Positions 17,319 to 45,427 of a stretch of DNA of 64,000 nt are shown here, one piece after another. This DNA is from an uncultured Gammaproteobacteria bacterium. GTDB taxonomy: Bacteria; Pseudomonadota; Gammaproteobacteria; UBA4575. The notes under the pieces are model-generated. The model made no database searches. It had not been told where the DNA came from and was given only the letters and a program-made list of their open reading frames with translations. The stretch covers positions 1,443,653-1,507,652 of the forward strand of contig OX638335.1 in the NCBI GenBank assembly GCA_951812785.1, read 5' to 3'. Position 1 is the first letter of the stretch; each line of letters opens with the position of its first letter. Made by a program: the position numbers and the translations under genes.

Positions 17319-18535
17319 CACCCTGAAGTGTACTGAGTTTAAAGGATACCGAAAGTAAGAGACAATATCTTAGGAGGTATTCGATGACTCAACGCAAGAT
17401 CTACACAAAGGAATTTAAGCTAGAAGCGGTTCGTTTATTAACGCAAAGTGACTGTCCGACCACGGAGTTAGCCTTGGCGCTTGGGGTGAAACGGAGTCTG
17501 CTCTATTGATGGCAGCAACCATTTCAAACACAGGGCGAATCGGCTTTTACAGGGAAACTAGGTCGCCCTAAGAAAGAAGCAATGAGTGAGGCGGCTCGCC
17601 TCAGGCAAGAGGTTAAGCAGCTGCGCGAGGCGAATGAGATTCTAAAAAAGGCCGCCGCATACTTTGCCAAAGACCTCAAGTGAAGTATGCGTATATCAAA
17701 GAATGTCGTCCCCTTCATTCTGTAGCAGCTCTGTGTCGCGCTTTGTGCGTGTCTGAAAGTGGTTATTATGCTTGGTTAAATAGCGCACCTAGCCCTCGTC
17801 AACAAACGTCAATCGAAACAGTGTTATGGCATTCTTAAGTGTTGGAAACAGTTAATGCAGGAAGGGATTAGTGGTGGGCGTGATCGCGTCGCTCGTCTTC
17901 GACGACAACAGGCTATTGATGCAAAACGAAGAAAACGCTTTGTGGTGACGACACGATCTAAACATCGCGACTGGATTGCGCCGAACCGACTGAAACGCAA
18001 CTTTACGGTCACTCAGCCGAATCAAGTATGGGTAGGCGATGTAACGTTTGTTGCAACCCGTCAAGGTTGGTTGTATGTAGCGGTGCTGGTTGATCTGTAC
18101 CGCCGCAAAGTGGTGGGTTGGTCCCTGTCGAAGAACAATAATGGCCCGTTGGTGGAAGATGCGCTAAAGATGGCAATCACGCATCGAAAGCCAAAATCTG
18201 GATTGATTCATCATACAGATCGTGGCCACCTATGCTATGCAGTCGTATCGGAACCTAGTAGAGCAGCAGGGCATGATCTCCAGTATGAGTCGCAAAAAAG
18301 ACTGCTGGGATAATGCGGTGGCAGAAAGCTTCTTCGCTAATTTAAAAAATGCACTAACATACTACCAAACATACAACACACGAGAGGAGGCGCAATCCGC
18401 GATCTTTGAATATATGGAGATCTTTTATAACCGACAGCGGTTATATCAAACTCTCAACTACCAAACACCTGAACAACATGAATTGATGTATCATGCTGCT
18501 TAATTTAATCATCCTTTTTTCTCAGTACACTTCAG
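17319..18535 (+). mobile_element. IS3-family insertion sequence with degraded orfA/orfB
   Basis: 16-bp terminal inverted repeats: CCTGAAGTGTACTGAG at 17319-17334 and CTCAGTACACTTCAGG at 18520-18535. OrfA (17384-17683) has an in-frame TGA at 17507-17509 in the conserved LLYRW motif. OrfB (17690-18503) has the DDE core (..VWVGDVTF..LYVAVLVDLYRRKVVGW..IHHTDRG..) split by stops and frameshifts. Confidence 0.85.
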
Positions 18536-29500: not shown

Positions 29501-32500
29501 CAAAAACGAGGCTTTCTAAGCTGCCTGTGCGGCAGTAAACACACGCTTTCAGTACATAAACAAACGATGCACTTTCTAAGCTGCCTGTGCGGCAGTAAAC
29601 TTTTAGAAGGATGTGGATTATGTGTTTTAATCTTTCTAAGCTGCCTGTGCGGCAGTAAACGCACAAAATTAGGTATTGCTGGTCTATTAGAATTTCTAAG
29701 CTGCCTGTGCGGCAGTAAACTATTCGAGATTCAGGTGTTTCTTTTGACCTGATTTCTAAGCTGCCTGTGCGGCAGTAAACGACGCGCGTTAACTGCGCAA
29801 GAAGAATTGGTCTTTCTAAGCTGCCTGTGCGGCAGTAAACTTGTCATCGCGCTGCGCAAAGCGCGAGTGGTTTTTCTAAGCTGCCTGTGCGGCAGTAAAC
29901 GTCGTTCGAGTGCTTCAGCACCAGCAACACCCTTTCTAAGCTGCCTGTGCGGCAGTAAACACAATGTCAATAATCTCTGTACGACAATTAACTTTCTAAG
30001 CTGCCTGTGCGGCAGTAAACTGAAATTAGTGGTAGAATTAGGTGAAGAACTGTTTCTAAGCTGCCTGTGCGGCAGTAAACTCTGTCTGATTCGATCAATT
30101 CCGAAGTCCACATTTCTAAGCTGCCTGTGCGGCAGTAAACTCTGTCTGATTCGATCAATTCCGAAGTCCACATTTCTAAGCTGCCTGTGCGGCAGTAAAC
30201 TCTGTCTGATTCGATCAATTCCGAAGTCCACATTTCTAAGCTGCCTGTGCGGCAGTAAACACAGTGTGCATCTCATAACTAAGCAAGACACTTTTCTAAG
30301 CTGCCTGTGCGGCAGTAAACATAGTCGTTTAGCGAGAGGAGTAATTTGGGGATTTCTAAGCTGCCTGTGCGGCAGTAAACAGATGCTCAAAAATATGCAA
30401 CTTAGTAAGTTATTTCTAAGCTGCCTGTGCGGCAGTAAACGCGGTACTGCTGCTGTACGCGTGTAATCAACTTTTCTAAGCTGCCTGTGCGGCAGTAAAC
30501 ATTCAGCCTATCAACACATTACAACAGCAATCTTTCTAAGCTGCCTGTGCGGCAGTAAACGGACTTTACCGCGCGGACGAAAGCGATAGCGCCTTTCTAA
30601 GCTGCCTGTGCGGCAGTAAACTACCACAATGTGACCTTCATACTAACGGGGCATTTCTAAGCTGCCTGTGCGGCAGTAAACAAGATTTACATTAGCATTA
30701 CCAACGATCTGTTTTTCTAAGCTGCCTGTGCGGCAGTAAACCAAATGATCCTGTTACTCCGAAGCCCTTGACTTTTCTAAGCTGCCTGTGCGGCAGTAAA
30801 CGAAATCTAGATTTCGTAGTTCAAAGACGCGGATTTCTAAGCTGCCTGTGCGGCAGTAAACGTTACTGGTTAAGACTCTTTCAACAGATTGTTTTTCTAA
30901 GCTGCCTGTGCGGCAGTAAACGCCCCGAAAGTGGTCGATAACGACAAAAGTGCTTTCTAAGCTGCCTGTGCGGCAGTAAACGTCTATTACGTACCTAGAC
31001 TTGCCCCGAAAGTTTTCTAAGCTGCCTGTGCGGCAGTAAACTCAATACAAACAGAAAACGAATGAAACCAAAGTTTCTAAGCTGCCTGTGCGGCAGTAAA
31101 CGAATCTGCTTGGTTGCGTACGAGACGCGCTGATTTCTAAGCTGCCTGTGCGGCAGTAAACTCCCTGCGCGATTTCGTTGCCTGATTGATCCTTTTCTAA
31201 GCTGCCTGTGCGGCAGTAAACTAATGTTTGTCGTTTTGCTTGCGTCATACTGCTTTCTAAGCTGCCTGTGCGGCAGTAAACTCCGCGCAAAGATTTTCAC
31301 GTCGTGCCGCGCGTTTCTAAGCTGCCTGTGCGGCAGTAAACATTTTGAAAATGTCAAAAAAGGTGATTTGGGCTTTCTAAGCTGCCTGTGCGGCAGTAAA
31401 CCAATACCGCGCTCTGTATTCAAACTGGATCATTTTCTAAGCTGCCTGTGCGGCAGTAAACATAGCTAAACTTGGTAATGTAAATGAAGCTCATTTCTAA
31501 GCTGCCTGTGCGGCAGTAAACTTAGATGGTCAGTCGAAGACGCAAAAGCGGCTTTTCTAAGCTGCCTGTGCGGCAGTAAACGTGTCAGAATATATGGAAA
31601 AATTTGGCCGCTTTTTCTAAGCTGCCTGTGCGGCAGTAAACCTAGCAAGCCTTTAATACCTAACTTCGTCCGATTTCTAAGCTGCCTGTGCGGCAGTAAA
31701 CATATCACGAAGCAGCATTGGACATATTGGTAATTTCTAAGCTGCCTGTGCGGCAGTAAACTTTTAATGGCATTTAAAGATTCATTCTTGTCATTTCTAA
31801 GCTGCCTGTGCGGCAGTAAACACAATTAGTAAGAATAACCACAAATATAGAGTTTTCTAAGCTGCCTGTGCGGCAGTAAACTGGCAAGTCTATATGTAGA
31901 AGAAGAAGCGAAATTTCTAAGCTGCCTGTGCGGCAGTAAACTTAGTCAGTACAAACTACTTACGACCGATCTTTTTCTAAGCTGCCTGTGCGGCAGTAAA
32001 CATTACACAATCACGATTATGCAACTGTAGAGATTTCTAAGCTGCCTGTGCGGCAGTAAACTTTCTATAACAGCTTCAACTGAAGCAGTGTCATTTCTAA
32101 GCTGCCTGTGCGGCAGTAAACGCTATAGAACTAGAACAAGAAGAATTAGAATTTTTCTAAGCTGCCTGTGCGGCAGTAAACCAACTAGAGAGTGATACTT
32201 AAAAAATTAGGGTTTTCTAAGCTGCCTGTGCGGCAGTAAACTTTGTTATTGTCGCTTTCTGATGCGACTGGATTTTCTAAGCTGCCTGTGCGGCAGTAAA
32301 CATATCATCAATTATTTACAGTTAGGCACAGATTTTCTAAGCTGCCTGTGCGGCAGTAAACGTAACGAGACTGCTGGACCGCGCTGCGCCCAGTTTCTAA
32401 GCTGCCTGTGCGGCAGTAAACCATAGCACAGCACTAATACGGTGCACGCCGATTTTCTAAGCTGCCTGTGCGGCAGTAAACGAAATCTCGATTTCGTAGT

Positions 32501-34822
32501 TCAGAAGCGCGGCTTTCTAAGCTGCCTGTGCGGCAGTAAACTTGCAAAGTGGTTCACAGCAGCGCAGTTAGATTTTCTAAGCTGCCTGTGCGGCAGTAAA
32601 CAGCAACCGGAAATGTCAGGGATCGCGTTATTCTTTCTAAGCTGCCTGTGCGGCAGTAAACGAGTCGACAGCGCCAGATTTTGGTGCTGTCGATTTCTAA
32701 GCTGCCTGTGCGGCAGTAAACATGAAAGATTGGAAAGCAGCGGTACGAACCTTTTCTAAGCTGCCTGTGCGGCAGTAAACGGATTTCAAATCCCAGATAC
32801 GGCGGCAGTCGATTTCTAAGCTGCCTGTGCGGCAGTAAACCTATGATTATCGGATAAATTTTCATCATTATATTTCTAAGCTGCCTGTGCGGCAGTAAAC
32901 GGCATTTCAATGGGCTCGGAAGGCATGAAATATTTCTAAGCTGCCTGTGCGGCAGTAAACGTAACGAGACTGCTGGACCGCGCTGCGCCCAGTTTCTAAG
33001 CTGCCTGTGCGGCAGTAAACCATAGCACAGCACTAATACGGTGCACGCCGATTTTCTAAGCTGCCTGTGCGGCAGTAAACTGATGCCTGAGAGCGGGGCT
33101 GTTGTACCAAGTTTTCTAAGCTGCCTGTGCGGCAGTAAACACGTTCTCCCGCATACCCGTCAACTTCACCACTTTCTAAGCTGCCTGTGCGGCAGTAAAC
33201 TAAGAAAGAAGCAATGAGTGAGGCGGCTCGCCTTTCTAAGCTGCCTGTGCGGCAGTAAACTCGTGCCGATTAGTTGCACAGAAGTACTGCCTTTTCTAAG
33301 CTGCCTGTGCGGCAGTAAACAACTACTTAGATATGATAAGCGATTAGATAAATTTCTAAGCTGCCTGTGCGGCAGTAAACCCCGTCAAGTTATTATAACT
33401 GGTCCGCGCGGCTTTCTAAGCTGCCTGTGCGGCAGTAAACACTATGAGAGACAAAAAGAATTTGCGCAGAGCTTTTCTAAGCTGCCTGTGCGGCAGTAAA
33501 CGCCCGTCAAAACTTTGTGCAATATAAGGCATCTTTCTAAGCTGCCTGTGCGGCAGTAAACCGAAAAAAACAGATACACGTCTGTATTATATGTTTCTAA
33601 GCTGCCTGTGCGGCAGTAAACGTATCGTGCGCCGTATCTGGCGCGAGCCTCTTTTTCTAAGCTGCCTGTGCGGCAGTAAACTGAGCGCATGTTTACCGCC
33701 ACCTAAGTATTCTTTTCTAAGCTGCCTGTGCGGCAGTAAACGTGCAGTAGTGCCAAGCGGCAACGAAACTGCATTTCTAAGCTGCCTGTGCGGCAGTAAA
33801 CTGAGTGCGTGTTTGCCTCCGCCAAGGTACTCATTTCTAAGCTGCCTGTGCGGCAGTAAACCCAAAACTGGATGCATGAGCGGAGCAGCCATGTTTCTAA
33901 GCTGCCTGTGCGGCAGTAAACCAGTTAGTAAAAATGGTATGACATTCGGTTGCTTTCTAAGCTGCCTGTGCGGCAGTAAACACGCGGTCGAATGTCCAAG
34001 TATAGAGTCGCCATTTCTAAGCTGCCTGTGCGGCAGTAAACTTCTGCGTTTTGCCGCATCGATGACATCTGCGTTTCTAAGCTGCCTGTGCGGCAGTAAA
34101 CGCTTTGTTGAGCCTTTTTTTCGGCCAGCACCTTTTCTAAGCTGCCTGTGCGGCAGTAAACGGCTCTCAAATACGAGATAACACATCAATTGATTTCTAA
34201 GCTGCCTGTGCGGCAGTAAACCTAGCAACTTGCTTGCAAGTTGCTAGCCTAGAGTTTCTAAGCTGCCTGTGCGGCAGTAAACATGGCTAGTAATAAGATA
34301 CGAGCTCGTCGACTTTTCTAAGCTGCCTGTGCGGCAGTAAACCGGAGATAATTATGAGTTGGGGTAGTGCAATATTTCTAAGCTGCCTGTGCGGCAGTAA
34401 ACTGTGGATAGACGGCTATTTTTTAGCGACCGATTTTCTAAGCTGCCTGTGCGGCAGTAAACATGGTTTAGAGCAAGTTACAGATCGCGACTTATTTCTA
34501 AGCTGCCTGTGCGGCAGTAAACTCTGTCTGATTCGATCGATGCCAAAATCCACATTTCTAAGCTGCCTGTGCGGCAGTAAACTTAGCGAGAGGAGCAATT
34601 TGGGGCGGATTGGCTTTCTAAGCTGCCTGTGCGGCAGTAAACAAACGCAGAATGTCAGCGCGACAATACAAGCATTTCTAAGCTGCCTGTGCGGCAGTAA
34701 ACACCAGGGAGGATTGACCAAAAGATCGAGACAATTTCTAAGCTGCCTGTGCGGCAGTAAACCTTAAACACTACTATTATAGTGTTTGCGCATATTTCTA
34801 AGCTGCCTGTGCGGCAGTAAAC
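20575..34822 (-). CRISPR. type I-F CRISPR array, ~238 repeats and 237 spacers, transcribed right to left
   Basis: 28-nt repeat (minus-strand reading GTTTACTGCCGCACAGGCAGCTTAGAAA) on a strict 60-nt period with mostly 32-nt spacers. The distal repeat at 20575-20602 carries one substitution. The leader-proximal repeat ends at 34822, next to cas6f. Confidence 0.98.
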
Positions 34823-34952: not shown

Positions 34953-35504
34953 TCAAAACCAGGGGACGGTGGCAATTTTGGATAATCCAAATAAGTCAAA
35001 TTTTCCCGTGATGGGCTGACTGGTTAAATCACTAAATTTAATGTAGCGCCTGTGTTTATGTTTGTTCGATCCACTGATGAGTTCGATATAGGGATTCTCT
35101 AATCCTTGGGTAAACATCTTTGCACGGTATTGTTTAACCTCTTCCTCTGTGATTGAACCACGTTTTATCAATCGATTCAGTTTGGCTTGGCTCATGTTGG
35201 CTTGCACTCGGCTAACGGTGCGGTATTGAACGTTATCCGGTACAGGTTGAATCGCTGACACCTGACAGTAACCGCTCATGCCGCCAACCCAGTTTTTATC
35301 CTGTAATTGAGTCAATGCAGTTTGTGTTCCATGTATGCGCAACTGATCGCCCAACGTCTTTTGATAGGCTGGAAAGCTCACGCCAATGTCGGTGCTGTTC
35401 AGGTCACACAGGGCTTTGTGGAATTTGGCGTACAACGAATCCATAAGTATCCTGGATCGGAATTCCGGGTCGGGTAATAACGTGATATTCAAGTAGTTAT
35501 CCAT
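34953..35504 (-). CDS. cas6f: Cas6f (Csy4) crRNA endoribonuclease
   Basis: 183 aa; MDNYLNITLLPDPEF...GLSKIATVPWF matches the Cas6f N- and C-terminal signatures. Last gene of the operon, next to the leader. Confidence 0.93.
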   Translation of the reverse strand: MDNYLNITLLPDPEFRSRILMDSLYAKFHKALCDLNSTDIGVSFPAYQKTLGDQLRIHGTQTALTQLQDKNWVGGMSGYCQVSAIQPVPDNVQYRTVSRVQANMSQAKLNRLIKRGSITEEEVKQYRAKMFTQGLENPYIELISGSNKHKHRRYIKFSDLTSQPITGKFDLFGLSKIATVPWF

Positions 35505-35512
35505 ATATCTAC

Positions 35513-36538
35513 CTATTTATCACTTTCACCGAATACACCGCCACGTACCAATACCGCCATCACGTAATGTTCATCTTCCACGCGTTCCAATGCACCACCA
35601 CGCGCCCAATGATCAAAAAAGCTATAGAAGTCTTGTTTTTCTGCGGGTGTACGGAAGGCTTTACCCTGATTGGTCACTGCACCATAGGGTTCGATAGCGA
35701 TTGGGCCAACCGAAGCTTCCGGGTCAGCAAACTCTCCATACCAAGTATCAATGGTACGGATGGCATTACCTATTTTTTGCGAGTGCATGGCAGCAATATT
35801 ATTTACATGGTAAAGAATTTTGCTTTTCTCACCTTTACCTTTATCCAGCACGAGTTCTTCGCTGGGATAGACATCTTGTGCTTTACCCACTTTGGCATAG
35901 CAGGTGATATCGAGCATAAGAAAATCATCTTCACTGGCTAATGCTGTTGCAATGCGTTCTGCCAAGATAGTAACTTCCGCATCACTTGCTGACAGGTCAC
36001 GCGGATTAAACTCCAAAGCATTAAATTGCCAACTCTGCTCTGCACCCTGGTTTAAGGCGCTGACTTCGACCTGGATGTTTTCGGCTCCAAAGCGGTTGCG
36101 CCAAAGGAATCGTGCATTGGCGATGTTCAAGGCATAACGCTTTGCCAGTTCTCTCATACCCCGTGTTTGCAGATAGCCATTGACTGCTGCTTGGTAGCTT
36201 TGTTTGAATAAGGCATTGTTGCAGGCTGAAGGCTGTTGCAAGCCACCCAATACTTTTAAGGTAAAGTGTAATTTAAGCGTGTCTTGTTCTGTACCCAAAG
36301 CACAGGCATCTATCGTTTGTAAATTGGGTTTTTCAACTTCTGCGTTTAATTTTTGCGGGTCTTTTTTTATCGCCTCCTTTAGGCGGTTAGCGATCGTCCC
36401 CCGCACTGATTTCTCTTGCAGTTTCAGCGGTGTCACTTCATTTTTATTATCCCAACTTGTGCCATACATATAGCCATCACTGGGTACCAGTTTTTTTTCA
36501 AATGCGAGTACAGATGCAATATTGTCTTTCTTAGCCAT
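35513..36538 (-). CDS. cas7f: Cas7f (Csy3) Cascade backbone subunit
   Basis: 341 aa, in the conserved I-F gene order. Confidence 0.9.
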   Translation of the reverse strand: MAKKDNIASVLAFEKKLVPSDGYMYGTSWDNKNEVTPLKLQEKSVRGTIANRLKEAIKKDPQKLNAEVEKPNLQTIDACALGTEQDTLKLHFTLKVLGGLQQPSACNNALFKQSYQAAVNGYLQTRGMRELAKRYALNIANARFLWRNRFGAENIQVEVSALNQGAEQSWQFNALEFNPRDLSASDAEVTILAERIATALASEDDFLMLDITCYAKVGKAQDVYPSEELVLDKGKGEKSKILYHVNNIAAMHSQKIGNAIRTIDTWYGEFADPEASVGPIAIEPYGAVTNQGKAFRTPAEKQDFYSFFDHWARGGALERVEDEHYVMAVLVRGGVFGESDK

Positions 36539-36556
36539 AGCTATTCTCCTGATATG

Positions 36557-37489
36557 TTAAAAATCAAATTCACTTGACGGATCTTTTGCAACCGTATTAA
36601 GGGCTACACATTGGTAAAAGTTACTAGCCTTATCAACTTGATAGCACCACAACATGTCGCTTATTGATTCAAAGCGATGAGGCATTTTGAATTCACCTAA
36701 GGTCACCAGGCTTTCAGCGAAGCAATGTGGTTGATCTGGGTCACGTTGGTTTTTGGCTTGGCCTAATTCACTAATACCGTGGAAGCCTGTAGCAATGGGT
36801 ACAATCCAGCCTAGGGGCTTGTCAGTTTGGCTTTTGCGGCGTTTTTTCCATAACACGCCATCTTTTGTTTGTTCGCAACGATGATGAATTGCCACATAGT
36901 CAATTAACGCAGCCATAGCATCATCCTGGCCTTGCCCCATCGCTTCAATCATTAGGTCGCGGCGCTCAATCAGCACATAACCTGGCATAATTTTTCGCGT
37001 AAACCGACGTAAATCCTCTTCGTTGTTATCTTCAAGTACAAAAATAGCAGGTGGGCTAAAGCTTTGAATATCCCCACCCGCCATTTTTATTTTGCTGTTG
37101 AGTAAATGGCTTATTTGCGCTTTTATTGCATCTTCTTGCTCCTGGCTTATCCCCTGCAATTCCAGTAATAAAGACACCTCAAGATGGCAACGAGCTTCCT
37201 CAATAAACGATGAACGCGATCCGGTTTTATCTAAGGGGTTACCGGTACCTATAATGGATGACACAAAATCATTTGTTCCACGATAGGTTTGTAAGTTCAT
37301 TTGGTGGCTCACCACACCGGTTGCCGTCACCTTTACATCTATGCCACCCTCATTTAATTTACGTTGTAGGGCGTGAGTCGCCCCTAACCATGCGGTCATC
37401 GCGGGAAAGCCAATGGTAAAAGGGCTGGAGAGGGCATTAGCGTTATGAATGTGAAGATGTGGAATCAGCAGTATCTTTTTATAGCTCAT
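36557..37489 (-). CDS. cas5f: Cas5f (Csy2)
   Basis: 310 aa; overlaps cas8f stop as ATGA; I-F order. Confidence 0.88.
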   Translation of the reverse strand: MSYKKILLIPHLHIHNANALSSPFTIGFPAMTAWLGATHALQRKLNEGGIDVKVTATGVVSHQMNLQTYRGTNDFVSSIIGTGNPLDKTGSRSSFIEEARCHLEVSLLLELQGISQEQEDAIKAQISHLLNSKIKMAGGDIQSFSPPAIFVLEDNNEEDLRRFTRKIMPGYVLIERRDLMIEAMGQGQDDAMAALIDYVAIHHRCEQTKDGVLWKKRRKSQTDKPLGWIVPIATGFHGISELGQAKNQRDPDQPHCFAESLVTLGEFKMPHRFESISDMLWCYQVDKASNFYQCVALNTVAKDPSSEFDF

Positions 37490-38802
37490 CGTAACGCCTC
37501 CTTGTGTTTCACGACCTGCTTATGGATATGCTTAAATTCGCCGTCTGAAAATATAAAAGTTTTTTTGCCGAGCAATTTTTCATAACCATTAAAGATAAAT
37601 TTAGCGATGTCAGTGCATAGCATATCTAACCAGTCATTTTCATCTTCTCGTTGCGCTTCATTGGCCATACAGAGCCATATTTTTTGAGTAGGGTTTAACT
37701 GGCTAGTATCTGGGTTGTATTGCGCTTCGCTTACGCTTCTTACTCGCCACATTCTTTCAATAATTCGATCCATGATGGCCTGGTAATATTCATCGCGCGC
37801 ACTCCGGATATGCCTATTATTTTTGTGGTTAAGAAATATTAAGTCATGCAAGGCATAAAACAAATCTCTACATTGAAAATAACTGAACGATTGGCTAAAA
37901 AAGTCCACTGTTGGAAAGTGGATGTCACGCTTGATTAATTTGGGTGGCTCGCTCGGTAGCAGATGCACTTTGCCACCGTTTTGATTGTTCAAAACGCTAA
38001 TATTCTGCGGCTTGGTACCGCCATAACCCATCGTGGTTAAGTTGGCCAGTTGCTTATAACCCCCTATATACATTTCATTGTTCTTTTCACATTTCGCAAA
38101 GTCTCTTGCGCCCGCATCCGGACCTATATACATTTCATTGTTCTTTTCACAAGTTCTGGCAATTTTTGTTTCTTCAGAAAAACGGATGGTATCAATCCTT
38201 TTTCTCAGCTCGAATACTATGCCAGATGCAGACAGTATCGATAATTGGTGGTAGCCATTTTCTACAGGAAAGTAGACCTGTTTAATTTTGGAACTCGTTA
38301 TGCTATCAGCATCGCTATTCGTCATGGCTAAAAAGCCTTCTTTTAAAGTGCTGTATGACTCTGCTTTAATCTTGAGAAGTTGTTGTGCTAAATCAGAATC
38401 TTGCTCGATGTGGCTAAGTAAGGTTTGCCCATCTTGCATATTAAGCGTCAAAAATTTATAGACATCTAATGCGGCAGCATTGCCCAGTGCATCGGCCTCC
38501 ACAACAACGTTGCCACTGCGTAAATAGCCATCGTTGCTTGCTTGGCTATCGGCAATAATTGATGAGGCATAGCCATTCTTATTTTTACGTGAACTAGGAT
38601 GGCTGAAAGTACATGGATGCGTGGATATGGACATTTGCCCCGCTCGCTTGGCGGCATTTGGCAACCAATTTTCCAAACTAAATTGCTCGGAGCACTCCTG
38701 TTCCTTAGCCTGGATCATCGTTTCATCTGCACCAGCATGAAGATTTTTCTTTAACCAAGCCGCTTTACGCTTGTCAAAGAATTCAGCTATTACTTTCTCC
38801 AT
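37486..38802 (-). CDS. cas8f: Cas8f (Csy1) large subunit
   Basis: 438 aa, first gene of the csy operon. Contains an internal 29-bp perfect direct repeat (see findings). Confidence 0.88.
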   Translation of the reverse strand: MEKVIAEFFDKRKAAWLKKNLHAGADETMIQAKEQECSEQFSLENWLPNAAKRAGQMSISTHPCTFSHPSSRKNKNGYASSIIADSQASNDGYLRSGNVVVEADALGNAAALDVYKFLTLNMQDGQTLLSHIEQDSDLAQQLLKIKAESYSTLKEGFLAMTNSDADSITSSKIKQVYFPVENGYHQLSILSASGIVFELRKRIDTIRFSEETKIARTCEKNNEMYIGPDAGARDFAKCEKNNEMYIGGYKQLANLTTMGYGGTKPQNISVLNNQNGGKVHLLPSEPPKLIKRDIHFPTVDFFSQSFSYFQCRDLFYALHDLIFLNHKNNRHIRSARDEYYQAIMDRIIERMWRVRSVSEAQYNPDTSQLNPTQKIWLCMANEAQREDENDWLDMLCTDIAKFIFNGYEKLLGKKTFIFSDGEFKHIHKQVVKHKEALR

Positions 38803-39013
38803 CTACATTATCCTTTTTACGCTAATAATTTTAGCCAAAAGCCAGTTATAAAAACTTTGCAGAAGCATCTTTAGGTGATGATACTTGCTGGTTGAATCCT
38901 GAGACATCTCATCAAGAACGAGTACTTCTTGCTGGCGAGAAACCGTTAGTGTCTCTTTTCTCACATACCGCTTAGCCATATTTTTTATACCCTACTTTAT
39001 CATTGATAGGTCA

Positions 39014-39042
39014 AGCATAAGCATAAAGATCAATATTTTCAA
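39014..39042 (-). promoter_or_regulatory. candidate sigma70 promoter for the csy operon (TTGAAA-17-TATGCT)
   Basis: -35 TTGAAA (complement of 39037-39042), 17-nt spacer, -10 TATGCT (complement of 39014-39019). It directly abuts the CC PAM of the psi-spacer target. Confidence 0.45.
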
Positions 39043-39077
39043 CCATTTAACTATTGGTATAAAATACTCCAACTACT
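39043..39077 (+). promoter_or_regulatory. CC PAM plus seed-matched target site of the adjacent psi-spacer; overlaps an extended -10 (TGgTATAAA, 39055-39063) that faces the mini-CRISPR
   Basis: Positions 1-14 of the site match psi-spacer 39096-39128 except at positions 6 and 12; 22/33 overall; CC immediately 5'. Confidence 0.55.
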
Positions 39078-39156
39078 GAAAAAGCAGCTTAGAAAATTTA
39101 CCTATTCGTGGTTATTTATCCATTTACTGCTTACTGCCGCATAGGCAGCTTGAACC
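39068..39156 (+). ncRNA. degenerate mini-CRISPR (psiR1-psiS-psiR2), candidate crRNA-like regulator of the CreR/CreA type
   Basis: psiR1 at 39068-39095 matches 19/28 but ends in a perfect GCAGCTTAGAAA 5' handle. 33-nt psi-spacer at 39096-39128. psiR2 at 39129-39156 matches 22/28 and keeps the intact hairpin CTGCCGCATAGGCAG. Orientation is opposite to the cas genes. Confidence 0.6.
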
Positions 39157-39182
39157 ATCTACCTTGATCTCCAGTAGGTGGT

Positions 39183-42100
39183 TCACACTCTCACCAATCC
39201 GAATTGGTCGTTATATTTATATTTAGCGCTTTCATCGTGCCAAAAACTTAACTCGCCATAGCGCAACGATGCCCTACGCATACTCATATCTTGTGCGTCT
39301 GCCATACTTGCTATTTCTGCTTCAAAGTCGCGTTGTAGCCATAGCCGTTTGCTTGCTTCTGTAGCCAACTGCACACGATCAATACCAAGCGGTAGTTCAC
39401 GTGGCACAGGAAAGCCTTTTTCGTTTTTTTCACAAAAGGTACATGCCTGCTTATTTTCATCAAAGGCCAAAAACACTTTCAAGCTCGGCGGAGATTTTCT
39501 AAACGACACTATGTGTTGCGGGTATGCCGTCAAAAACCAGGCTTCACGCAAATAGCCTTGTAGCTGAGCAGGGCCGTTACCGTCTCGTCCATAGTTAGCC
39601 AATAACTTGCAAATAACATAATGTTCTAAATCTGCCAATTGTTTTTTAGGCTGTAGATCTTTTGATTTTTGGATACGTGCAATAGCATCTACACGCTGTA
39701 ATAAGGCATCCGCATCCAGCAAGTCATTCAAGTTGTGGCTTGCCAACCTGATTTGGTCTTCAAAACCTGGCCTGTTAAATACTTTACCGTTTTCAAGGTG
39801 TTTATCGCGTACCCCCCGCCAGTTGTATTGCAGCAAACTGATGTTAGGCACTTCCACGCCGATTTTACGATGACGACGCACACGTCCTGCCAATTGGATA
39901 ATTGAACGATACGAAGATGGTTCCACAACTGCCCAGTCAAAATCGTGGTCGCGACCAACCTCTTCTACGGGAGTTGCCACTAACACAAACAGCACATGTT
40001 TAACCTGTGGTTCGGTTCGCTTTATATGCTCAAGGTGTTGACGAATAACAGTGTTTAGAAAAGCTTTGGGTTGTTCATCTATGTCTTCTTTACGTTTTAA
40101 TACTTGGCCTAGGTGCTGTTCTTGTTTATGGCGCATCAGCAAGACTTGCTGACTGTGGTACGGCATCGTTCTTATCTGAACGTCTGCTGGCAGATCCATC
40201 TTTAGCAAGTAACGGGCTAAGGCTATGCAGGGTTGAATATTCGCCATGCGCACCACGCCAAACGACACCGCCAATTGGCTTTGTTGATCAACCATGTGAT
40301 GGTGCTGATGTTTAGTGAGAACACTATCAGTAATGATTTTAAAATAGGCTTGTTGTTTACTCGCTATAACGTTTTCATCGTTAGGGCTATGGGTAAAATC
40401 AGCAAAGATTTGTTCACAAGGAGTAATGTCAGCTTTGCGCTTAACCGGTTGTTTGACTAATTTAGCAACGCGTTTTTCGACAAATTTCACGTGTTCACTG
40501 CGGTAAGCAGGTATTGCATCCCGCACTTGCAAGCCATGATTACTTGCGACGACTGTGTTAAATTCATCTATCCATGCACAGCCCACCGTCGCACTGGCAT
40601 CACGGCTTTTACAGTAGATTAGCCATCCATCTCGGTACGCTTTGAAGTAGCCTTCAGCTAAATCAGGCGTAATGGTTGCCGAGGAGATCATCACCTTTCG
40701 ACCTAACATACCTGCTAAGTGAATGAGGCGTCCAATAGCGACTAAATCCTCACCGGTAAAATCGTCAACTTCATCAATTACTAGATCAGAAGACATTAAC
40801 CGTAGAGTAGGCAAAATATAGCGCCCCCCACGCTTAGTCTCAGTTGCCGCCATAAGATGGTCGATGGTGCAGGCTAATACCGGCGCATAGAGGAATTTTT
40901 TATCACGTTGTTCACGCAGTACGGTAGTCATACCTTCTTCAGGAATAGCGCAATCGTAATCGACTTCTTCATCCAACAATGTTTCTTGTGACTCTGAACC
41001 ACTTGCTTCAAAACTCAGTTCTTCTGTCTCAGTTTTTGCTTGCTGATGTAACGCCATGACGGCACGCGAGCCGATCAGTACCGCCAGTTCGGTTGCATCC
41101 AAACCCACTCGCTCACGGTATTCATCACCTGTTTGTAATGTGAGGGTACGTAAGCCCAGAGCCAAAATAAAACGCAGGCTATTCCCATCATTTGATACAG
41201 CCTGCATCACTTTGGCATTGGCAAAGGTTTTACCGCAGCCCGTACTTGCCATATTCACAGCGAAAAAACCTTGCTTTTGCGTATTATTCTTGCGCCAATG
41301 TTTAATGTTATCTACGGCTTTATCTTGCCAACGAAATTCGCCAGGGCTTAGTTTTTTCAATGCTGTGATGTCTTGCGCTATGGGTGGTTCAGCTTCAAAT
41401 GCCGGTAGCAAATGTGCAGTGTTTAAACCATGCCTTGCAACACCAACCAAATGCTCATCCAGCTTTTGCTTTAAAGCTTTAGTTTTAAAATCGGTATTGG
41501 CAAATAAGCCGAGCTTGTCTTGCCATTTTTTATCGGCATTTTGTGATGAGTAATAATGATCACCCAGCATTACGCATAACCGCGCATAATTTAATACTGA
41601 TCGGTAACTGCCATCATTGAGTGATTGCAATACCTGCGATTCACAAGCTAGTAAGCGTTGTGACCATTTTTTAATTTGCTTTAACCAAGGTTGCGAAGCG
41701 CTGAGTAGCCCATTAGGAAAATTAAAACATTGTTCAACCCGCTGCTTATATTCAGCCTGATCATAGTTGTTTTCGTAACCCCACTGCTGAGTAACCAGGC
41801 ATAAAACATTATCAATGTTAGGACAGCATTCAGCCCGCATATCCACATCTTTATTTAGCGGTAAACGATGATGGGAGACAACCAGCCAAGCCACTAGTTT
41901 AGCTATCGGTGGTAAATTTTTTAGCGGATTAGTCTGCTGTTTACTGGCAATGGCTTTTATCTTGGCTTCATCAATGTCGCCTTTTGCTAAGGTCTCAAGC
42001 CAACCACTATCGTTTACATTGTTTGTATCGCCTTGATGCATTTGAATAAGTGCATTCAGCAATAAACACGAAATCCATTCATGCCGAATAGGGTCACCTT

Positions 42101-42545
42101 TAAAGCCCATTTTATTCTTAGGCTTCAATTTTTCCTGGAACAGTTGGCTGGCTTTACCCCAATCATGCAAAAGCGCGGCAATAGCCACCAAGGCTTTAAT
42201 TAAGGGTAAATACGCCCAGTCATTTTCAATATGAGAATTTAATAAATTTCGCCTCGTCGTGTTAACGGGCACGGCTCCTTCGCGATCAAATTTCTGACGA
42301 TTACCCACCACCCAAACCAACTCACTACGCGCACGGCTGCGTATCCAATGACAGCTTACCGCAGTGTTTTTACTGGCAGTTTTTCTAAGTAATTTTTTTA
42401 CTGCCAGTAAGCCTTCCTGGGTGATAATTGTTTGCCAGGTGTTATCGCCAATGCGGTTGGCGAAGGCATCAAGCACACGGCGACTGCGGGCGTGGGCTTT
42501 TTTTTCGCATTGACTAACAAAGGTAACCATCATGACCAAAGACAC
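39183..42545 (-). CDS. cas3: Cas2-Cas3 fusion (Cas3f) helicase-nuclease
   Basis: 1120 aa with an N-terminal Cas2 domain (..VSQCEKKAHARSRRVLDAFA..HWIRSRARSELVWVVGN..), HD nuclease and SF2 helicase. The ORF-track start is GTG at 42545; ATG codons 4-5 codons downstream are more likely the real start. Confidence 0.93.
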   Translation of the reverse strand: MSLVMMVTFVSQCEKKAHARSRRVLDAFANRIGDNTWQTIITQEGLLAVKKLLRKTASKNTAVSCHWIRSRARSELVWVVGNRQKFDREGAVPVNTTRRNLLNSHIENDWAYLPLIKALVAIAALLHDWGKASQLFQEKLKPKNKMGFKGDPIRHEWISCLLLNALIQMHQGDTNNVNDSGWLETLAKGDIDEAKIKAIASKQQTNPLKNLPPIAKLVAWLVVSHHRLPLNKDVDMRAECCPNIDNVLCLVTQQWGYENNYDQAEYKQRVEQCFNFPNGLLSASQPWLKQIKKWSQRLLACESQVLQSLNDGSYRSVLNYARLCVMLGDHYYSSQNADKKWQDKLGLFANTDFKTKALKQKLDEHLVGVARHGLNTAHLLPAFEAEPPIAQDITALKKLSPGEFRWQDKAVDNIKHWRKNNTQKQGFFAVNMASTGCGKTFANAKVMQAVSNDGNSLRFILALGLRTLTLQTGDEYRERVGLDATELAVLIGSRAVMALHQQAKTETEELSFEASGSESQETLLDEEVDYDCAIPEEGMTTVLREQRDKKFLYAPVLACTIDHLMAATETKRGGRYILPTLRLMSSDLVIDEVDDFTGEDLVAIGRLIHLAGMLGRKVMISSATITPDLAEGYFKAYRDGWLIYCKSRDASATVGCAWIDEFNTVVASNHGLQVRDAIPAYRSEHVKFVEKRVAKLVKQPVKRKADITPCEQIFADFTHSPNDENVIASKQQAYFKIITDSVLTKHQHHHMVDQQSQLAVSFGVVRMANIQPCIALARYLLKMDLPADVQIRTMPYHSQQVLLMRHKQEQHLGQVLKRKEDIDEQPKAFLNTVIRQHLEHIKRTEPQVKHVLFVLVATPVEEVGRDHDFDWAVVEPSSYRSIIQLAGRVRRHRKIGVEVPNISLLQYNWRGVRDKHLENGKVFNRPGFEDQIRLASHNLNDLLDADALLQRVDAIARIQKSKDLQPKKQLADLEHYVICKLLANYGRDGNGPAQLQGYLREAWFLTAYPQHIVSFRKSPPSLKVFLAFDENKQACTFCEKNEKGFPVPRELPLGIDRVQLATEASKRLWLQRDFEAEIASMADAQDMSMRRASLRYGELSFWHDESAKYKYNDQFGLVRV

Positions 42546-42699
42546 CCGTTACCCAGATAGGTTAGAATCCGGTTGTCGTCTGGCCAAGAATCGACAACCA
42601 TCATCTTGATGTTTACAGCACAAACGAAATGCTGCATCCAAAGGGATTTGCGAGTGACATTGCTTACCACACAATGTTTCAGCTCACCCCTTAGGCGAC

Positions 42700-42728
42700 A
42701 TATTAGAAGCAATCTAAAAATATTTCAA
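42700..42728 (-). promoter_or_regulatory. candidate sigma70 promoter for cas2-3 (TTGAAA-17-TAATAT)
   Basis: -35 TTGAAA (complement of 42723-42728), 17-nt spacer, -10 TAATAT (complement of 42700-42705). It is separated by one nucleotide from the CC PAM of the psi-spacer target. Confidence 0.45.
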
Positions 42729-42730
42729 TC

Positions 42731-42752
42731 CCTATAAAGAGTTATTTTAGCA
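42731..42752 (+). promoter_or_regulatory. CC PAM plus seed-matched target of psi-spacer 42800-42819
   Basis: CC at 42731-42732; the next 10 nt (tataaagagt) match the psi-spacer perfectly; 15/20 overall. Confidence 0.55.
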
Positions 42753-42771
42753 AATAATCTGCTATACTTTG

Positions 42772-42847
42772 AATATCTGCCGTATAGGCAGCTTAGAAAT
42801 ATAAAGAGTCGTTTTACACGTTCACTGCCGCACAGGCAGCTTATTGA
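42772..42847 (+). ncRNA. degenerate mini-CRISPR with a 20-nt psi-spacer, second candidate CreR/CreA-like crRNA-like gene
   Basis: psiR1' at 42772-42799 (22/28) keeps a perfect hairpin plus handle CTGCCGTATAGGCAGCTTAGAAA. psi-spacer tataaagagtcgttttacac at 42800-42819. psiR2' at 42820-42847 is GTTCACTGCCGCACAGGCAG with an intact hairpin, then degenerates to cttattga. Sits in a 345-bp gap between cas1 and cas2-3, in the opposite orientation. Confidence 0.6.
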
Positions 42848-42890: not shown

Positions 42891-43829
42891 CTATTCGCCA
42901 AGACTAACTTGCTTCACCTGTTCAAACATAAAATCCAGTGCTTTGTGCTGGGTAAAGTTTTGCAGACATTGTTGGCGAAACTCCTGTTCGCTGGAGTTTT
43001 CCTTAGCACAGATAAAAGCCCAGGGCAGAATCAATGTGTCCTTTACCAAATCGGCAATATCAAAGACCAATGCACCACGACGAGTTTTACCATGCATCAC
43101 GGCAAACCCATGTGGAATGCCCAGTACCCAAAGGGTGGTTGCGGCTAAACCATAAGCCAGGTAATTGCCATGATTGAGAAAGGCATTGGCAGTATCTTCG
43201 GCTTCGTGGGTGCGGGTGAAGTCGCCATACTCGGTGCGGGTAGCGGCCAGTTTATACAACCATTTGGTGAGCTGGGCTTCGGTGTTGAGTAGTTCACTGA
43301 CTCTGGTGCAATGTTTTATTCTGTTGATGGCGTTATCTAATGCGCTTTTTATTGATGGGTCGTCGCTTGAAAAGCCTTCGCTCTTGAGATCGCGGTCACG
43401 TGACCAAACTTGTTGTAAAAATTCAATTCTTGCCTGCTGGAATTGTTTAGCAGCTTGCAAGCGCTTACTGTCGTCAAACCAGAATTGCATCCACCCTTGC
43501 ATATATTCGGTGGGACGATATTCGCTTTGTGGTGTCAGCCATTCAATTTCATTAGCCATAAGTAATGGTGTGCCACCTCCACCACAAAAACCAACTAATA
43601 CACCAGCTTGTGCGAGCATACGCATAGCTGCTTGAGTAATAGATGTGCCTGTTCCCAATAACAAGCAGGTGGTATTGGCAATCGGGATATTCCAATACTG
43701 GTTTTCTTCTTTGGCTTCAGTAAGGTACAAAACACGGCCATCTTTTTGCATGACGCGACATTTTTCAAGGTAATAAATGTTCGCTCGCTTAGAATGGAGG
43801 ATGGCTTTCAGGTCAGTCAGTTGATCCAC
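42891..43829 (-). CDS. cas1: Cas1 integrase (I-F type)
   Basis: 312 aa, MDQLTDLKAILHSKRANIYYLEKCRV...; first gene of the cas operon. Confidence 0.93.
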   Translation of the reverse strand: MDQLTDLKAILHSKRANIYYLEKCRVMQKDGRVLYLTEAKEENQYWNIPIANTTCLLLGTGTSITQAAMRMLAQAGVLVGFCGGGGTPLLMANEIEWLTPQSEYRPTEYMQGWMQFWFDDSKRLQAAKQFQQARIEFLQQVWSRDRDLKSEGFSSDDPSIKSALDNAINRIKHCTRVSELLNTEAQLTKWLYKLAATRTEYGDFTRTHEAEDTANAFLNHGNYLAYGLAATTLWVLGIPHGFAVMHGKTRRGALVFDIADLVKDTLILPWAFICAKENSSEQEFRQQCLQNFTQHKALDFMFEQVKQVSLGE

Positions 43830-44509: not shown

Positions 44510-44593
44510 ATTATTTGCCTCTCACAAGCCCTGAAATAAAATCAGTAAACTTTGTTGGCGGGTTGTGGCAATTTAATGTCAGCTAAGTATCAA

Positions 44594-45427
44594 ATAACCA
44601 TTGTTGTATCTCTTTTTTATTAGCTAACACTAGTTGTTGGGCTTCTGGTTGGGCATCGTGAAATTTAATATTCACTTGCATTTCTTGCAGTAGATAATGG
44701 GTGAGTGTAGCACGAGTAGGAATAACAATTCACCTTCTTGCATCATATATTCTTGTTGAATCACATTTTTTTGTTCGCGGCTTAAACGACTGTCTGGTGC
44801 AAGTTTTACATCAATGAATGTGTTCCAAGCTACATCATCGGTACTAGTGTGAGTCGCATTGTCTAACAAGCCAGCTTGACCTACAAAACGGCTAAGTACA
44901 AAGTCTCTAAATGCCTTATTTTTTTCGTCGTAAGCACGCAAATGCCACCTTAGCCCAGTTTTGACAAACACATGAGGCTGAATAACTCGACCCTGATTAT
45001 TTGGATTGCTTAAGGAAAGATATTCCACGTCTACCCGCTTCTTTTGTTTAGTAGCTTGCACCAATAAGCACATAACTTAGGGAGTAACGTAACGTCTAGG
45101 CAAACTTAGAGAGGAGCTGGTTACTCGATGATTTCCTTTAGGCTCAGCAGCTAAAATTAAACCATTATGATCTAACCAATCTAAGTATTCGCTGGCATCA
45201 CAACTAATAAAAACTGGAGAGAAGTTTTGTGAAGCAACAAACCCTTTTAAACTAGGTTGATACACTAGGTTTTCAGGGTGTTCTTGTTGGTAATAAGAAA
45301 GATATTTCTGGGCTTGTGTTCTACTAATACCAAAGTATTGGCTTACTTGTGTACTATTAATTGAACCTTGCCAAAATGCCAATAACTCAATGAAATAACA
45401 CCTAACGTCCGTATTGGATTGACTCAC
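44594..45427 (-). pseudogene. WYL-domain transcriptional regulator of the BrxR/CapW type, with an in-frame TAA and a C-terminal frameshift
   Basis: N-terminal wHTH segment (45077-45427), WYL-like core ..VKTGLRWHLRAYDEKNKAFRDFVLSRF.. (44672-45073, same frame, separated by TAA at 45077-45079), and a WCX-like tail readable only after a frameshift (..IVIPTRATLTHYLLQEMQVNIKFHDAQPEAQQLVLANKKEIQQWLFDT*). Confidence 0.55.

What the first reader, a model, noticed from the sequence alone, without database searches (positions are those of the whole stretch)
39014..42847. The two intra-operon modules share one blueprint: -10 / 17 nt / TTGAAA / CC PAM / seed target / divergent mini-CRISPR
Both modules have the same order and spacing. 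A minus-strand -35 TTGAAA lies 0-2 nt from a CC PAM. The CC is followed by a seed-only target. A plus-strand mini-CRISPR begins 25-40 bp further on. The mini-CRISPR's own putative -10 overlaps the target. The pseudo-spacers themselves are unrelated in sequence (33 nt versus 20 nt). The repeats also differ in hairpin loop: GTATA or GCATA in the modules versus GCACA in the main array. This argues for selection on function rather than recent duplication. It suggests the csy operon and cas2-3 are each placed under independent crRNA-guided feedback. A two-node design of this kind would be new if confirmed.
Basis: inference. Interest (0 to 1): 0.6.

Follow-up and report, generated by a model that had tools for sequence, protein, structure and literature searches.

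The report
Two crRNA-like switches in I-F locus

Summary
Both intergenic regions of a complete I-F1 locus (cas1 | cas2-3 | csy1-3, cas6f, 238-repeat array, all on the minus strand) carry a plus-strand mini-CRISPR. Each also has a CC-flanked site matching the guide seed, with mismatches mostly at the flipped positions 6/12/18. The PAM lies 0-2 nt from a minus-strand TTGAAA/17 nt/TAnnnT promoter. Each CC+seed site is unique in the 64 kb window.

The same blueprint recurs in 12 modules from other genomes with unrelated guides that co-vary with their targets. In the closest relative of module A, guide and target both changed at seed position 3.

Module A (cas2-3/csy1 gap) therefore belongs to the published I-F1 CreR/CreA mini-array class. 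It drives a conserved 58-aa ORF plus the csy operon.

Module B (cas1/cas2-3 gap) is a second, orthogonal cassette. Its 140-nt structured leader is homologous to csy1 leaders of related loci, but here it sits before cas2-3. None of 39 related loci has a repeat there, and no paper I could search reports a crRNA-like RNA aimed at a cas3 promoter.

Verdict: real, and a new variant of a known kind. It rests on one genome with no expression data. A toxin-antitoxin reading is not excluded.

The parts
39014..39019 (-). Module A: -10 hexamer TATGCT of the promoter reading into orfX-csy1
   Evidence: The hexamer is conserved in L041.
39037..39042 (-). Module A: -35 hexamer TTGAAA, 17 nt from the -10 and 0 nt from the PAM
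39043..39044 (+). Module A: CC PAM
39045..39077 (+). Module A: target of guide A. Effective seed is 39045-39058; mismatches fall at positions 6 and 12.
   Evidence: Seed position 3 co-varies with the guide in L041.
39055..39063 (+). Module A: extended -10 (TGgTATAAA) of the mini-CRISPR's own promoter, lying inside the target
   Evidence: Sequence reading. This is an inference.
39068..39095 (+). Module A: psiR1. The 8-nt handle CTTAGAAA is intact; the stem is weakened by an A-C mismatch.
39096..39128 (+). Module A: 33-nt guide (pseudo-spacer). It is 26 nt in L041; the window has a 7-nt insertion.
39129..39156 (+). Module A: R2 with intact hairpin, loop GCATA
39151..39185 (+). Module A: terminator-like hairpin after R2. 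It is conserved in L001, L038, L039 and L041.
38803..38979 (-). orfX: a 58-aa ORF between promoter A and csy1. Its TAG stop abuts the csy1 ATG.
   Evidence: Homologues: P0121/L041 at 73% identity, and L006, L026, L043. No Pfam family.
34953..38802 (-). csy1, csy2, csy3 and cas6f, the operon downstream of promoter A
   Evidence: TIGR02564, TIGR02565, TIGR02566, TIGR02563, all full length.
42700..42705 (-). Module B: -10 hexamer TAATAT of the promoter reading into the leader and cas2-3
42723..42728 (-). Module B: -35 hexamer TTGAAA, 17 nt from the -10 and 2 nt from the PAM
42731..42732 (+). Module B: CC PAM
42733..42752 (+). Module B: target of guide B, matching at positions 1-10 and 13-17
42760..42768 (+). 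Module B: extended -10 (TGcTATACT) of the mini-CRISPR's own promoter
   Evidence: Sequence reading. This is an inference.
42772..42799 (+). Module B: R1 with intact hairpin (loop GTATA) and intact handle CTTAGAAA
42800..42819 (+). Module B: 20-nt guide (32 minus 2 x 6 nt)
42820..42847 (+). Module B: R2, with a hairpin identical to the main-array repeat
42558..42700 (-). Structured leader RNA of about 140 nt with three hairpins, between promoter B and cas2-3
   Evidence: nhmmer homology to csy1 leaders. 12 compensatory pairs. Covariance-model hits, including the independent hit in L044.
39183..42533 (-). cas2-3, the gene downstream of promoter B
   Evidence: TIGR02562, 976 bits, full length.
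42891..43829 (-). cas1, upstream of module B
   Evidence: TIGR03637.
20575..34822 (-). Main CRISPR array with 238 repeats, the source of crRNAs that compete for Csy proteins

Best explanation
Both elements are genes for crRNA-like regulatory RNAs (CreR/CreA class). They reprogram the locus's own Csy (I-F Cascade) complex into a sequence-specific repressor of two promoters inside the cas locus.

Shown from sequence:
- Each mini-CRISPR keeps the 8-nt handle CTTAGAAA and a Cas6f-type hairpin.
- Each guide has a CC-flanked, seed-matched site in the same gap.
- The PAM lies 0-2 nt from the -35 of a 17-nt-spaced sigma-70-like promoter that reads into the downstream cas gene.

Inferred mechanism:
1. 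An extended -10 promoter transcribes the plus-strand mini-CRISPR.
2. Cas6f cuts after each hairpin. For B this gives a 48-nt RNA: handle, 20-nt guide, hairpin. It would assemble a shortened Csy complex with about four Cas7f subunits instead of six.
3. The complex binds CC plus the seed. The guide is short (B) or matched only in the seed (A), so the R-loop cannot complete and Cas2-3 is not recruited. The result is binding without cutting.
4. Cas8f sits on the edge of the -35 and blocks RNA polymerase. It also covers the mini-CRISPR's own divergent promoter.

Predicted outputs:
- Module A throttles orfX-csy1-csy2-csy3-cas6f, which is autorepression of the effector.
- Module B throttles the structured leader plus cas2-3. 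The nuclease/adaptation gene would therefore be set by how much free Csy-guide complex exists.
- Anything that drains that pool, such as anti-CRISPRs or a flood of crRNAs from the 238-repeat array, would derepress both.
- The two guides are orthogonal in sequence but share one sensor.
For: - The locus is a complete I-F1 system with a 238-repeat array.
- Each CC+seed site is unique in the window.
- In 14 modules (2 here, 12 in other genomes) the guide scores 12-15 of 15 informative positions against its own gap. The mean against other gaps is 7.9. In 13 of the 14 the PAM complement GG is followed within 0-2 nt by TTGnnn (TTTACT in L006), 17 nt, then a TA-initial -10 hexamer (TAnnnT in 12, TATATA in L016).
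- The closest module-A relative, L041, differs at seed position 3 in both guide and target. The guide-to-target stretch is the best-conserved part of the gap.
- Module B has every functional part intact: two perfect hairpins at -8.0 and -8.6 kcal/mol, an exact handle, and a 20-nt guide, the length favoured by P. aeruginosa CreA1.
- Module B's leader is homologous to the leaders that follow CreR-targeted promoters before csy1 in L001, L038, L039 and L044.
- Published experiments on the class show repression without cleavage by I-F1 mini-arrays and tolerance of mismatches at positions 6 and 12 (bioRxiv 10.1101/2023.03.03.530964; 10.64898/2026.06.02.729485; 10.1101/2024.01.05.574328).
Against: - There is no transcript, TSS or binding data. 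Both promoters are consensus matches only.
- Module B has no orthologue. 0 of 39 related loci have any repeat-like sequence between cas1 and cas2-3. The nearest Cas1 and Cas2-3 in 5.8 billion proteins are only 85% and 83% identical. Conservation of B itself therefore cannot be tested.
- Guide B has a mismatch at position 11.
- cas2-3 may also be transcribed by read-through from cas1, and it has no obvious Shine-Dalgarno sequence.
- Module A in this genome shows wear: an A-C mismatch in the psiR1 stem and a 7-nt insertion that makes the guide 33 nt.
- Both promoters first transcribe a conserved non-cas element, so the primary target could be that element rather than the cas genes.
Confidence: 0.6

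Rival explanations
1. The modules are CRISPR-repressed toxin-antitoxin safeguards (CreTA/CrePA type) rather than cas regulators. The guide RNAs would be antitoxins. The real cargo would be orfX (a protein toxin, module A) and the structured leader (an RNA toxin, module B). Both would be released when the Csy complex is lost or inhibited. Co-regulation of the downstream cas genes would be a by-product of sharing the promoter.
For: - In published I-F CreTA and CrePA modules the toxin lies exactly here, between the CreA-targeted promoter and csy1, and can share its promoter with cas genes.
- orfX is a conserved small ORF in five loci.
- The leader is a conserved structured RNA with compensatory changes.
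- The leader's conserved AUG runs straight into hairpin 2, which loosely recalls the Acinetobacter CreT, where the start codon sits in a stem.
Against: - orfX has no KilA-C or any other Pfam domain. Its stop abuts the csy1 start, which fits an operon member.
- The leader has no conserved Shine-Dalgarno plus mini-ORF. The ORF after the conserved AUG is 2, 12, 23 or 35 codons long in different members.
- L040 has lost the guide RNA gene and the PAM yet keeps the promoter and leader. That would be hard to survive if the leader were a toxin.
- No terminator separates the leader from cas2-3.
Confidence: 0.2
2. Only the csy1-side module matters. Module B would be a passenger: a leader-type cassette displaced into the cas1/cas2-3 junction by recombination between I-F loci or with a mobile element. 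It would have no selected effect on cas2-3.
For: - Module B is found in a single genome. Its closest relatives have cas1 and cas2-3 overlapping (ATGA) or carry cargo genes in that position.
- The cassette family otherwise always sits before csy1.
- The array holds a perfect spacer against this leader, as it does against neighbouring IS-rich DNA. This hints at a foreign origin.
Against: - Every functional part of B is intact and better preserved than in module A.
- An element with an active promoter and a Csy-binding site directly upstream of cas2-3 would affect its transcription whatever its origin.
Confidence: 0.15
3. The elements are decayed array fragments, and the seed matches are chance.
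For: Short AT-rich seeds can match by chance. Promoter-like hexamers are common here.
Against: - Each CC+seed site is unique in the window.
- The geometry recurs in 14 modules with co-varying guides and targets.
- There is a compensatory change at seed position 3.
Confidence: 0.02

Closest known systems
I-F1 regulatory mini-array / CreR between cas3 (cas2-3) and csy1 (Shmakov et al. 2023, P. aeruginosa YL84; Liu et al. 2023 CreR)
   Same: A degenerate two-repeat mini-CRISPR antisense to the cas genes. A CC PAM and a seed-only match that tolerates positions 6 and 12. The target sits at the csy promoter, and the guide is short. Module A fits in place and design; module B fits in design.
   Different: Module B lies between cas1 and cas2-3, and its promoter drives cas2-3, not the effector operon. 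Two orthogonal guide genes sit in one locus. Published targets are the cas8/csy1, cas10d, cas6 and cas12a promoters.
CreTA (Acinetobacter WCHA45; P. aeruginosa CreTA1/2) and CrePA (A. baylyi ADP1) of I-F systems
   Same: The same gap, the same guide/target/PAM logic, and a small element transcribed from the targeted promoter before csy1. P. aeruginosa CreA1 likewise favours a 20-nt guide.
   Different: There is no SD/mini-ORF/GC-hairpin toxin and no KilA-C protein. orfX and the leader are unrelated to the described toxins, and no toxicity has been shown. In P. aeruginosa the -35 lies about 30 bp from the target, against 0-2 bp here.
CRISIS: crlRNA-supervised cargo defence genes inside type I-C cas operons
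   Same: A crRNA-like RNA inside the cas operon represses the promoter of whatever lies downstream.
   Different: Here the downstream gene is a core cas gene (cas2-3), not a cargo defence system. The subtype is I-F, not I-C.
tracr-L autoregulation of type II-A cas9 operons
   Same: A natural guide with partial complementarity turns the effector into a repressor of a cas promoter and is relieved by anti-CRISPRs.
   Different: It is a class 2, single-protein system with one node. This comparison rests on abstracts seen and on general knowledge.

Membership tests
Type I-F1 regulatory mini-array (CreR/CreA crRNA-like RNA) | Two repeat-like sequences flank a spacer-like sequence inside a cas intergenic region, separate from the adaptive array | tested here: met
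   A: 39068-39156. B: 42772-42847. Identity to the main repeat is 19-24 of 28, and Rfam CRISPR-DR4 hits three of the four repeats.
Type I-F1 regulatory mini-array (CreR/CreA crRNA-like RNA) | The 8-nt 5' handle and a Cas6f hairpin are preserved so the RNA can be processed and loaded | tested here: met
   The handle CTTAGAAA is exact in both. Hairpins are intact in B-R1, B-R2 and A-R2. A-psiR1 has one A-C mismatch in its 5-bp stem. Actual processing was not testable.
Type I-F1 regulatory mini-array (CreR/CreA crRNA-like RNA) | The guide is partially complementary, in the PAM-proximal seed, to a nearby site flanked by 5'-CC | tested here: met
   A matches at 1-5, 7-11 and 13-14. B matches at 1-10 and 13-17. 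Each site is unique in the window. Guide and target co-vary across loci.
Type I-F1 regulatory mini-array (CreR/CreA crRNA-like RNA) | The target lies at or next to the promoter of the effector (csy/cas8f) operon | tested here: inconclusive
   Met for A on a predicted promoter. For B the adjacent promoter faces cas2-3, not the effector genes. No TSS data exist.
Type I-F1 regulatory mini-array (CreR/CreA crRNA-like RNA) | Csy-dependent repression of the target promoter without DNA cleavage | not testable with these tools
   Needs reporter, EMSA and interference assays.
CreTA / CrePA (CRISPR-repressed toxin-antitoxin) | A toxin gene lies downstream of the targeted promoter: SD + mini-ORF + hairpin RNA, or a KilA-C protein | tested here: not met
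   orfX has no Pfam domain. The leader has no conserved SD/mini-ORF. Neither matches a described toxin. A new toxin type is not excluded.
CreTA / CrePA (CRISPR-repressed toxin-antitoxin) | Loss of the guide RNA or of the Csy complex is toxic | not testable with these tools
   Indirect evidence against, for the leader: L040 lost the guide gene and the PAM but keeps the promoter and leader.
Ordinary adaptive CRISPR array | A leader-driven array of identical repeats that acquires spacers matching foreign DNA | tested here: not met
   There are two degenerate repeats only. The guide matches the neighbouring DNA. The mini-CRISPRs are on the opposite strand to the 238-repeat array.

The most novel reading that the evidence does not exclude
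In this lineage the Csy surveillance complex, loaded with a dedicated 20-nt guide, directly gates transcription of the cas2-3 nuclease/integrase-partner gene. This would be a second node, separate from effector autorepression. Destruction and adaptation capacity would rise only when free Csy-guide complex falls, for example under anti-CRISPR attack or crRNA overload. The node would have arisen by moving a portable cassette (guide gene, target-promoter and structured leader) from the csy1 junction to the cas1/cas2-3 junction. The perfect but PAM-less array spacer against that leader could be a trace of guide-primed self-acquisition, or of the cassette's foreign origin.
Probability: 0.4. Interest if true: 0.65.

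Novelty: new variant of a known kind. Interest (0 to 1): 0.5.

Why it matters
Known crRNA-like regulators tune the effector genes, or guard them with toxins. How the amount of Cas3 nuclease is matched to the amount of Cascade is largely unexplained, although excess Cas3 risks autoimmunity and runaway priming. A natural guide RNA aimed at the cas2-3 promoter would show that the effector itself can set nuclease and adaptation levels. It would also show that these guide/promoter cassettes are portable parts that can be placed before different genes. The locus gives a compact, testable two-guide circuit, and two new conserved cargo elements (orfX and the structured leader) whose roles are unknown.

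Tried and rejected
1. Leader peptide. An apparent run of synonymous changes between the window and L001 (KHCVVS) suggested a conserved peptide. With five sequences the changes proved to be compensatory stem pairs, and no frame is conserved.
2. Remnant of the cas1 3' end. I tested whether the DNA just upstream of cas2-3, including the ATGA overlap, is left over from cas1. There is no real similarity.
3. Deletion in A-psiR1. My first reading was that it had lost 3 nt. Alignment with L041 shows equal length and two substitutions.
4. Orthologues of module B.
   - The genome scan gave 32 loci.
   - The metagenome scan with the Cas2-3 N-terminus gave 3 loci.
   - Protein searches with Cas2-3 and Cas1 found nothing above 83-85% identity apart from the source itself.
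Those for P0001 and P0014 returned nothing.
   - No locus has a repeat in the cas1/cas2-3 junction.
5. Phage or plasmid mimics. Exact handle+seed scans of viral contigs found none. BLAST of the leader against phage and plasmid collections found none.
6. Known RNA family for the leader. Rfam has none. A covariance model found only the training members and L044.
7. Source organism. It could not be named. The exact Cas2-3 sits on an unnamed 2.16-Mb NCBI/ENA contig.
8. Structure prediction of orfX. Not run, because only two admissible sequences were available.

Full report
SETTING

The window holds a complete type I-F1 CRISPR-Cas locus on the minus strand. The genes are cas1 (42891-43829), cas2-3 (39183-42533), csy1 (37486-38802), csy2, csy3 and cas6f (34953-35504). 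All are full-length matches to the NCBIfam I-F models. A leader follows, then an array of 238 repeats (GTTTACTGCCGCACAGGCAGCTTAGAAA) at 20575-34822. Two gaps interrupt the operon. One is 345 bp, between cas1 and cas2-3. The other is 380 bp, between cas2-3 and csy1.

CHECKING THE OBSERVATION

Both gaps contain a plus-strand mini-CRISPR, antisense to the cas genes. The only repeat-core matches outside the array are at 39134, 42777 and 42825. Rfam calls them CRISPR-DR4.

- Module A has a psiR1 (39068-95) that keeps the handle CTTAGAAA, a 33-nt guide (39096-39128) and an R2 (39129-56).
- Module B has an R1 (42772-99), a 20-nt guide (42800-19) and an R2 (42820-47).
- Each guide has a CC-flanked match upstream on the same strand.
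  - Guide A matches 39045-77 at positions 1-5, 7-11 and 13-14.
  - Guide B matches 42733-52 at positions 1-10 and 13-17.
  - Most mismatches fall at positions 6, 12 and 18. These bases are flipped out in I-F Cascade and do not pair, as the I-F1 mini-array papers also note.
- Each CC+seed string occurs exactly once in the window on both strands. Shuffles give 0.04 and 0.27 hits per window even with one mismatch allowed.
- Directly beside each PAM on the other strand lies TTGAAA, then 17 nt, then TATGCT (A) or TAATAT (B), reading towards csy1 or cas2-3.

The described order and spacing are therefore real. Three details need correction.

- B-R2 has the same GCACA loop as the main array.
- A-psiR1 has a weakened stem.
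- The mini-CRISPR's best -10 overlaps the target in A, but in B it lies just beyond it.

IS THE BLUEPRINT MEANINGFUL?

I collected 44 loci: 32 from one-per-species genomes, 3 from metagenomes and 9 from contig look-ups.

An antisense mini-CRISPR sits between cas2-3 and csy1 in 11 of about 35 loci that show that junction, and also in the short contigs L041 and L042. This fits the 25-29% reported for I-F1.

I read out 12 foreign modules (L001, L004, L006, L016, L019, L024, L026, L038, L039, L041, L043, L044). Their guides are unrelated between families. Each has a CC-flanked site in its own gap that matches 12-15 of 15 informative positions. The mean against other gaps is 7.9.

In 13 of the 14 modules, counting the window's two, the PAM complement GG is followed within 0-2 nt by TTGnnn (TTTACT in L006), exactly 17 nt, and a TA-initial -10 hexamer (TAnnnT in 12, TATATA in L016). 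L004 is the exception; its target is on the other strand.

The closest relative of module A is L041, an ENA metagenome contig at 89% identity over the gap. It differs from the window at seed position 3 in both guide and target. The stretch from PAM to R2 is the best-conserved part of the gap.

This co-variation is strong evidence that guide-target pairing is under selection. It also shows that the blueprint is a property of the whole class, not a peculiarity of this locus.

WHAT EACH MODULE DRIVES

Promoter A is followed by a 58-aa ORF, orfX (38979-38803). Its TAG stop abuts the csy1 ATG. orfX has a 73%-identical homologue in L041 and L042, and recognisable relatives in the same position in L006, L026 and L043. 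It has no Pfam domain.

Promoter B is followed by about 140 nt of leader before cas2-3.

- This leader is homologous to the csy1 leaders of L001, L038, L039 and L040 (nhmmer E = 1.5e-6).
- The alignment folds into three hairpins with 12 pairs kept through double changes.
- A covariance model built from it finds an independent member before csy1 in L044 (115 bits) and nothing else in 0.55 Mb.
- Rfam has no such family.

The two modules thus belong to two different cassette families, an orfX type and a leader type. In other genomes both types occupy the cas2-3/csy1 junction. This locus has one of each, with the leader type displaced to the cas1/cas2-3 junction.

HOW UNUSUAL IS MODULE B?

- In 39 related loci that show the cas1/cas2-3 junction, none has any repeat-like sequence there.
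- In the nearest relatives the two genes overlap by ATGA (L036, L037, L040, L043).
- In others the gap holds cargo genes such as Bro-N, KilA-N or toxin-antitoxin pairs.
- No closer relative exists in the protein collection. The best are 83% for Cas2-3 and 85% for Cas1.
- The papers I could search report crRNA-like guides aimed at the cas8/csy1, cas10d, cas6 and cas12a promoters, at creT/creP toxin promoters and at cargo defence genes. None reports a cas3/cas2-3 promoter as target, or two guide genes controlling two cas units in one I-F locus.

MOST LIKELY MECHANISM

The anatomy is shown; the steps below are inferred.

1. An extended -10 promoter transcribes each mini-CRISPR (TGgTATAAA in A, TGcTATACT in B).
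2. Cas6f cuts after each hairpin. Guide B becomes a 48-nt RNA with a 20-nt guide. That is 32 minus two 6-nt Cas7f steps, and is the length favoured by P. aeruginosa CreA1.
3. The shortened Csy complex recognises CC and pairs through the seed. It cannot complete the R-loop, so it binds without recruiting Cas2-3. This behaviour has been shown experimentally for an I-F1 mini-array.
4. Sitting 0-2 bp from the -35, the complex blocks RNA polymerase at the cas-facing promoter. It also covers its own divergent promoter.

Module A is then effector autorepression. Module B makes cas2-3 output depend on the free Csy-guide pool. The guides are orthogonal, but both nodes read the same sensor. For cas2-3 this is cross-regulation rather than feedback.

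CAVEATS AND RIVALS

- No expression data exist, and module B is a single instance.
- Module A shows some wear: an A-C mismatch in the psiR1 stem and a 7-nt insertion in the guide.
- cas2-3 could also be read through from cas1.
- The main rival is that orfX and the leader are CRISPR-repressed toxins, which occupy exactly this position in Acinetobacter and Pseudomonas.
  - Against this, neither element resembles a described toxin.
  - The leader has no conserved SD/mini-ORF.
  - L040 has lost both the guide gene and the PAM while keeping promoter and leader. The guide gene was apparently lost by recombination between target and guide.
- A second rival is that module B is a passenger from a recombination event.
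- Chance is excluded.

VERDICT

Module A is a member of a known class. Module B and the two-guide layout are a new variant of that class. The case rests on intact anatomy and on homology of its parts, not on conservation or experiment.

Noticed in passing
window 23600-23631 (spacer 187 of the main array) versus 42581-42612: One array spacer matches the locus's own cas2-3 leader at 32 of 32 positions, covering the 5' half of hairpin 3. The 5' flank is AA, not the CC PAM, so it should be harmless. It lies about 120 bp from the guide-B target. It could be a trace of guide-primed self-acquisition or of a foreign origin for the cassette.
   Followed up: partly
window 33201-33232 versus 17569-17600; window 34703-34734 versus 11937-11968: Two more array spacers match the window itself, at 32/32 and 29/32, and both lack a CC PAM. 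Their targets lie in an IS-rich stretch next to the array's distal end. That stretch holds IS1595, rve and DDE_Tnp_1 transposase fragments and broken type I restriction genes.
   Followed up: partly
window 44589-45427 (minus strand): The BrxR/WYL-type regulator that sits upstream of cas1 in close relatives (L036-L039, L044) is a pseudogene here. It has an in-frame stop and a frameshift (42% identity to the L037 protein). The protein regulator is broken in the one locus that has two guide-RNA modules.
   Followed up: partly
window 38803-38979 (minus strand); also L041, L042, L043, L006, L026: orfX is a small ORF family of 50-70 aa with a basic N-terminus (K-R-Y-V-x-K-E-T-L-T) and a Trp-containing C-terminal helix. 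It is always the first gene after the guide-targeted promoter and just before csy1. It has no Pfam match, and only one homologue cluster turned up among 5.8 billion proteins.
   Followed up: partly
window 42558-42700 (minus strand); L001 9548-9685; L038 6541-6679; L039 6551-6688; L040 6461-6602; L044 6609-6746: This is a structured leader RNA family of about 140 nt with three hairpins and 12 compensatory pairs. It is absent from Rfam and always follows a guide-targeted promoter. Its function is unknown.
   Followed up: yes
L040 6358-6470: The guide gene appears to have been deleted by recombination between the target and the near-identical guide. The PAM has changed from CC to TC. Promoter, leader and R2 remain. 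This looks like a natural escape from repression.
   Followed up: partly
L001 5122-6004; L003 4610-6004; L007 4836-6004; L033 4024-5004; L038 2150-3004; L039 1372-2997; L044 2144-3004; L022 5451-5994: In relatives the cas1/cas2-3 junction is a hotspot for cargo: Bro-N or KilA-N/ORF6N-type proteins, a VapBC pair in L039 and two small ORFs of 76 and 97 aa in L022, which I read as a toxin-antitoxin pair without running a domain search. None has a nearby repeat-like sequence. The published CreP toxin is a KilA-C domain protein.
   Followed up: no
L044 6355-6560: The mini-array here has three repeats and two guides. The first guide matches the csy promoter site. The second has a degenerate handle and no target that I looked for.
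   Followed up: no
window 20575-34822: The array is very large, with 237 spacers of which 224 are unique. It contains internal duplications, including a four-spacer block (spacers 136-139 repeated as 140-143) and a triple copy (spacers 77-79).
   Followed up: yes
L001, L038, L039, L044 guide/target pairs: In the leader-type family the guide and target consistently differ at seed position 8 or 9. Such a mismatch would normally weaken I-F binding, so this may be a built-in attenuation of repression.
   Followed up: no
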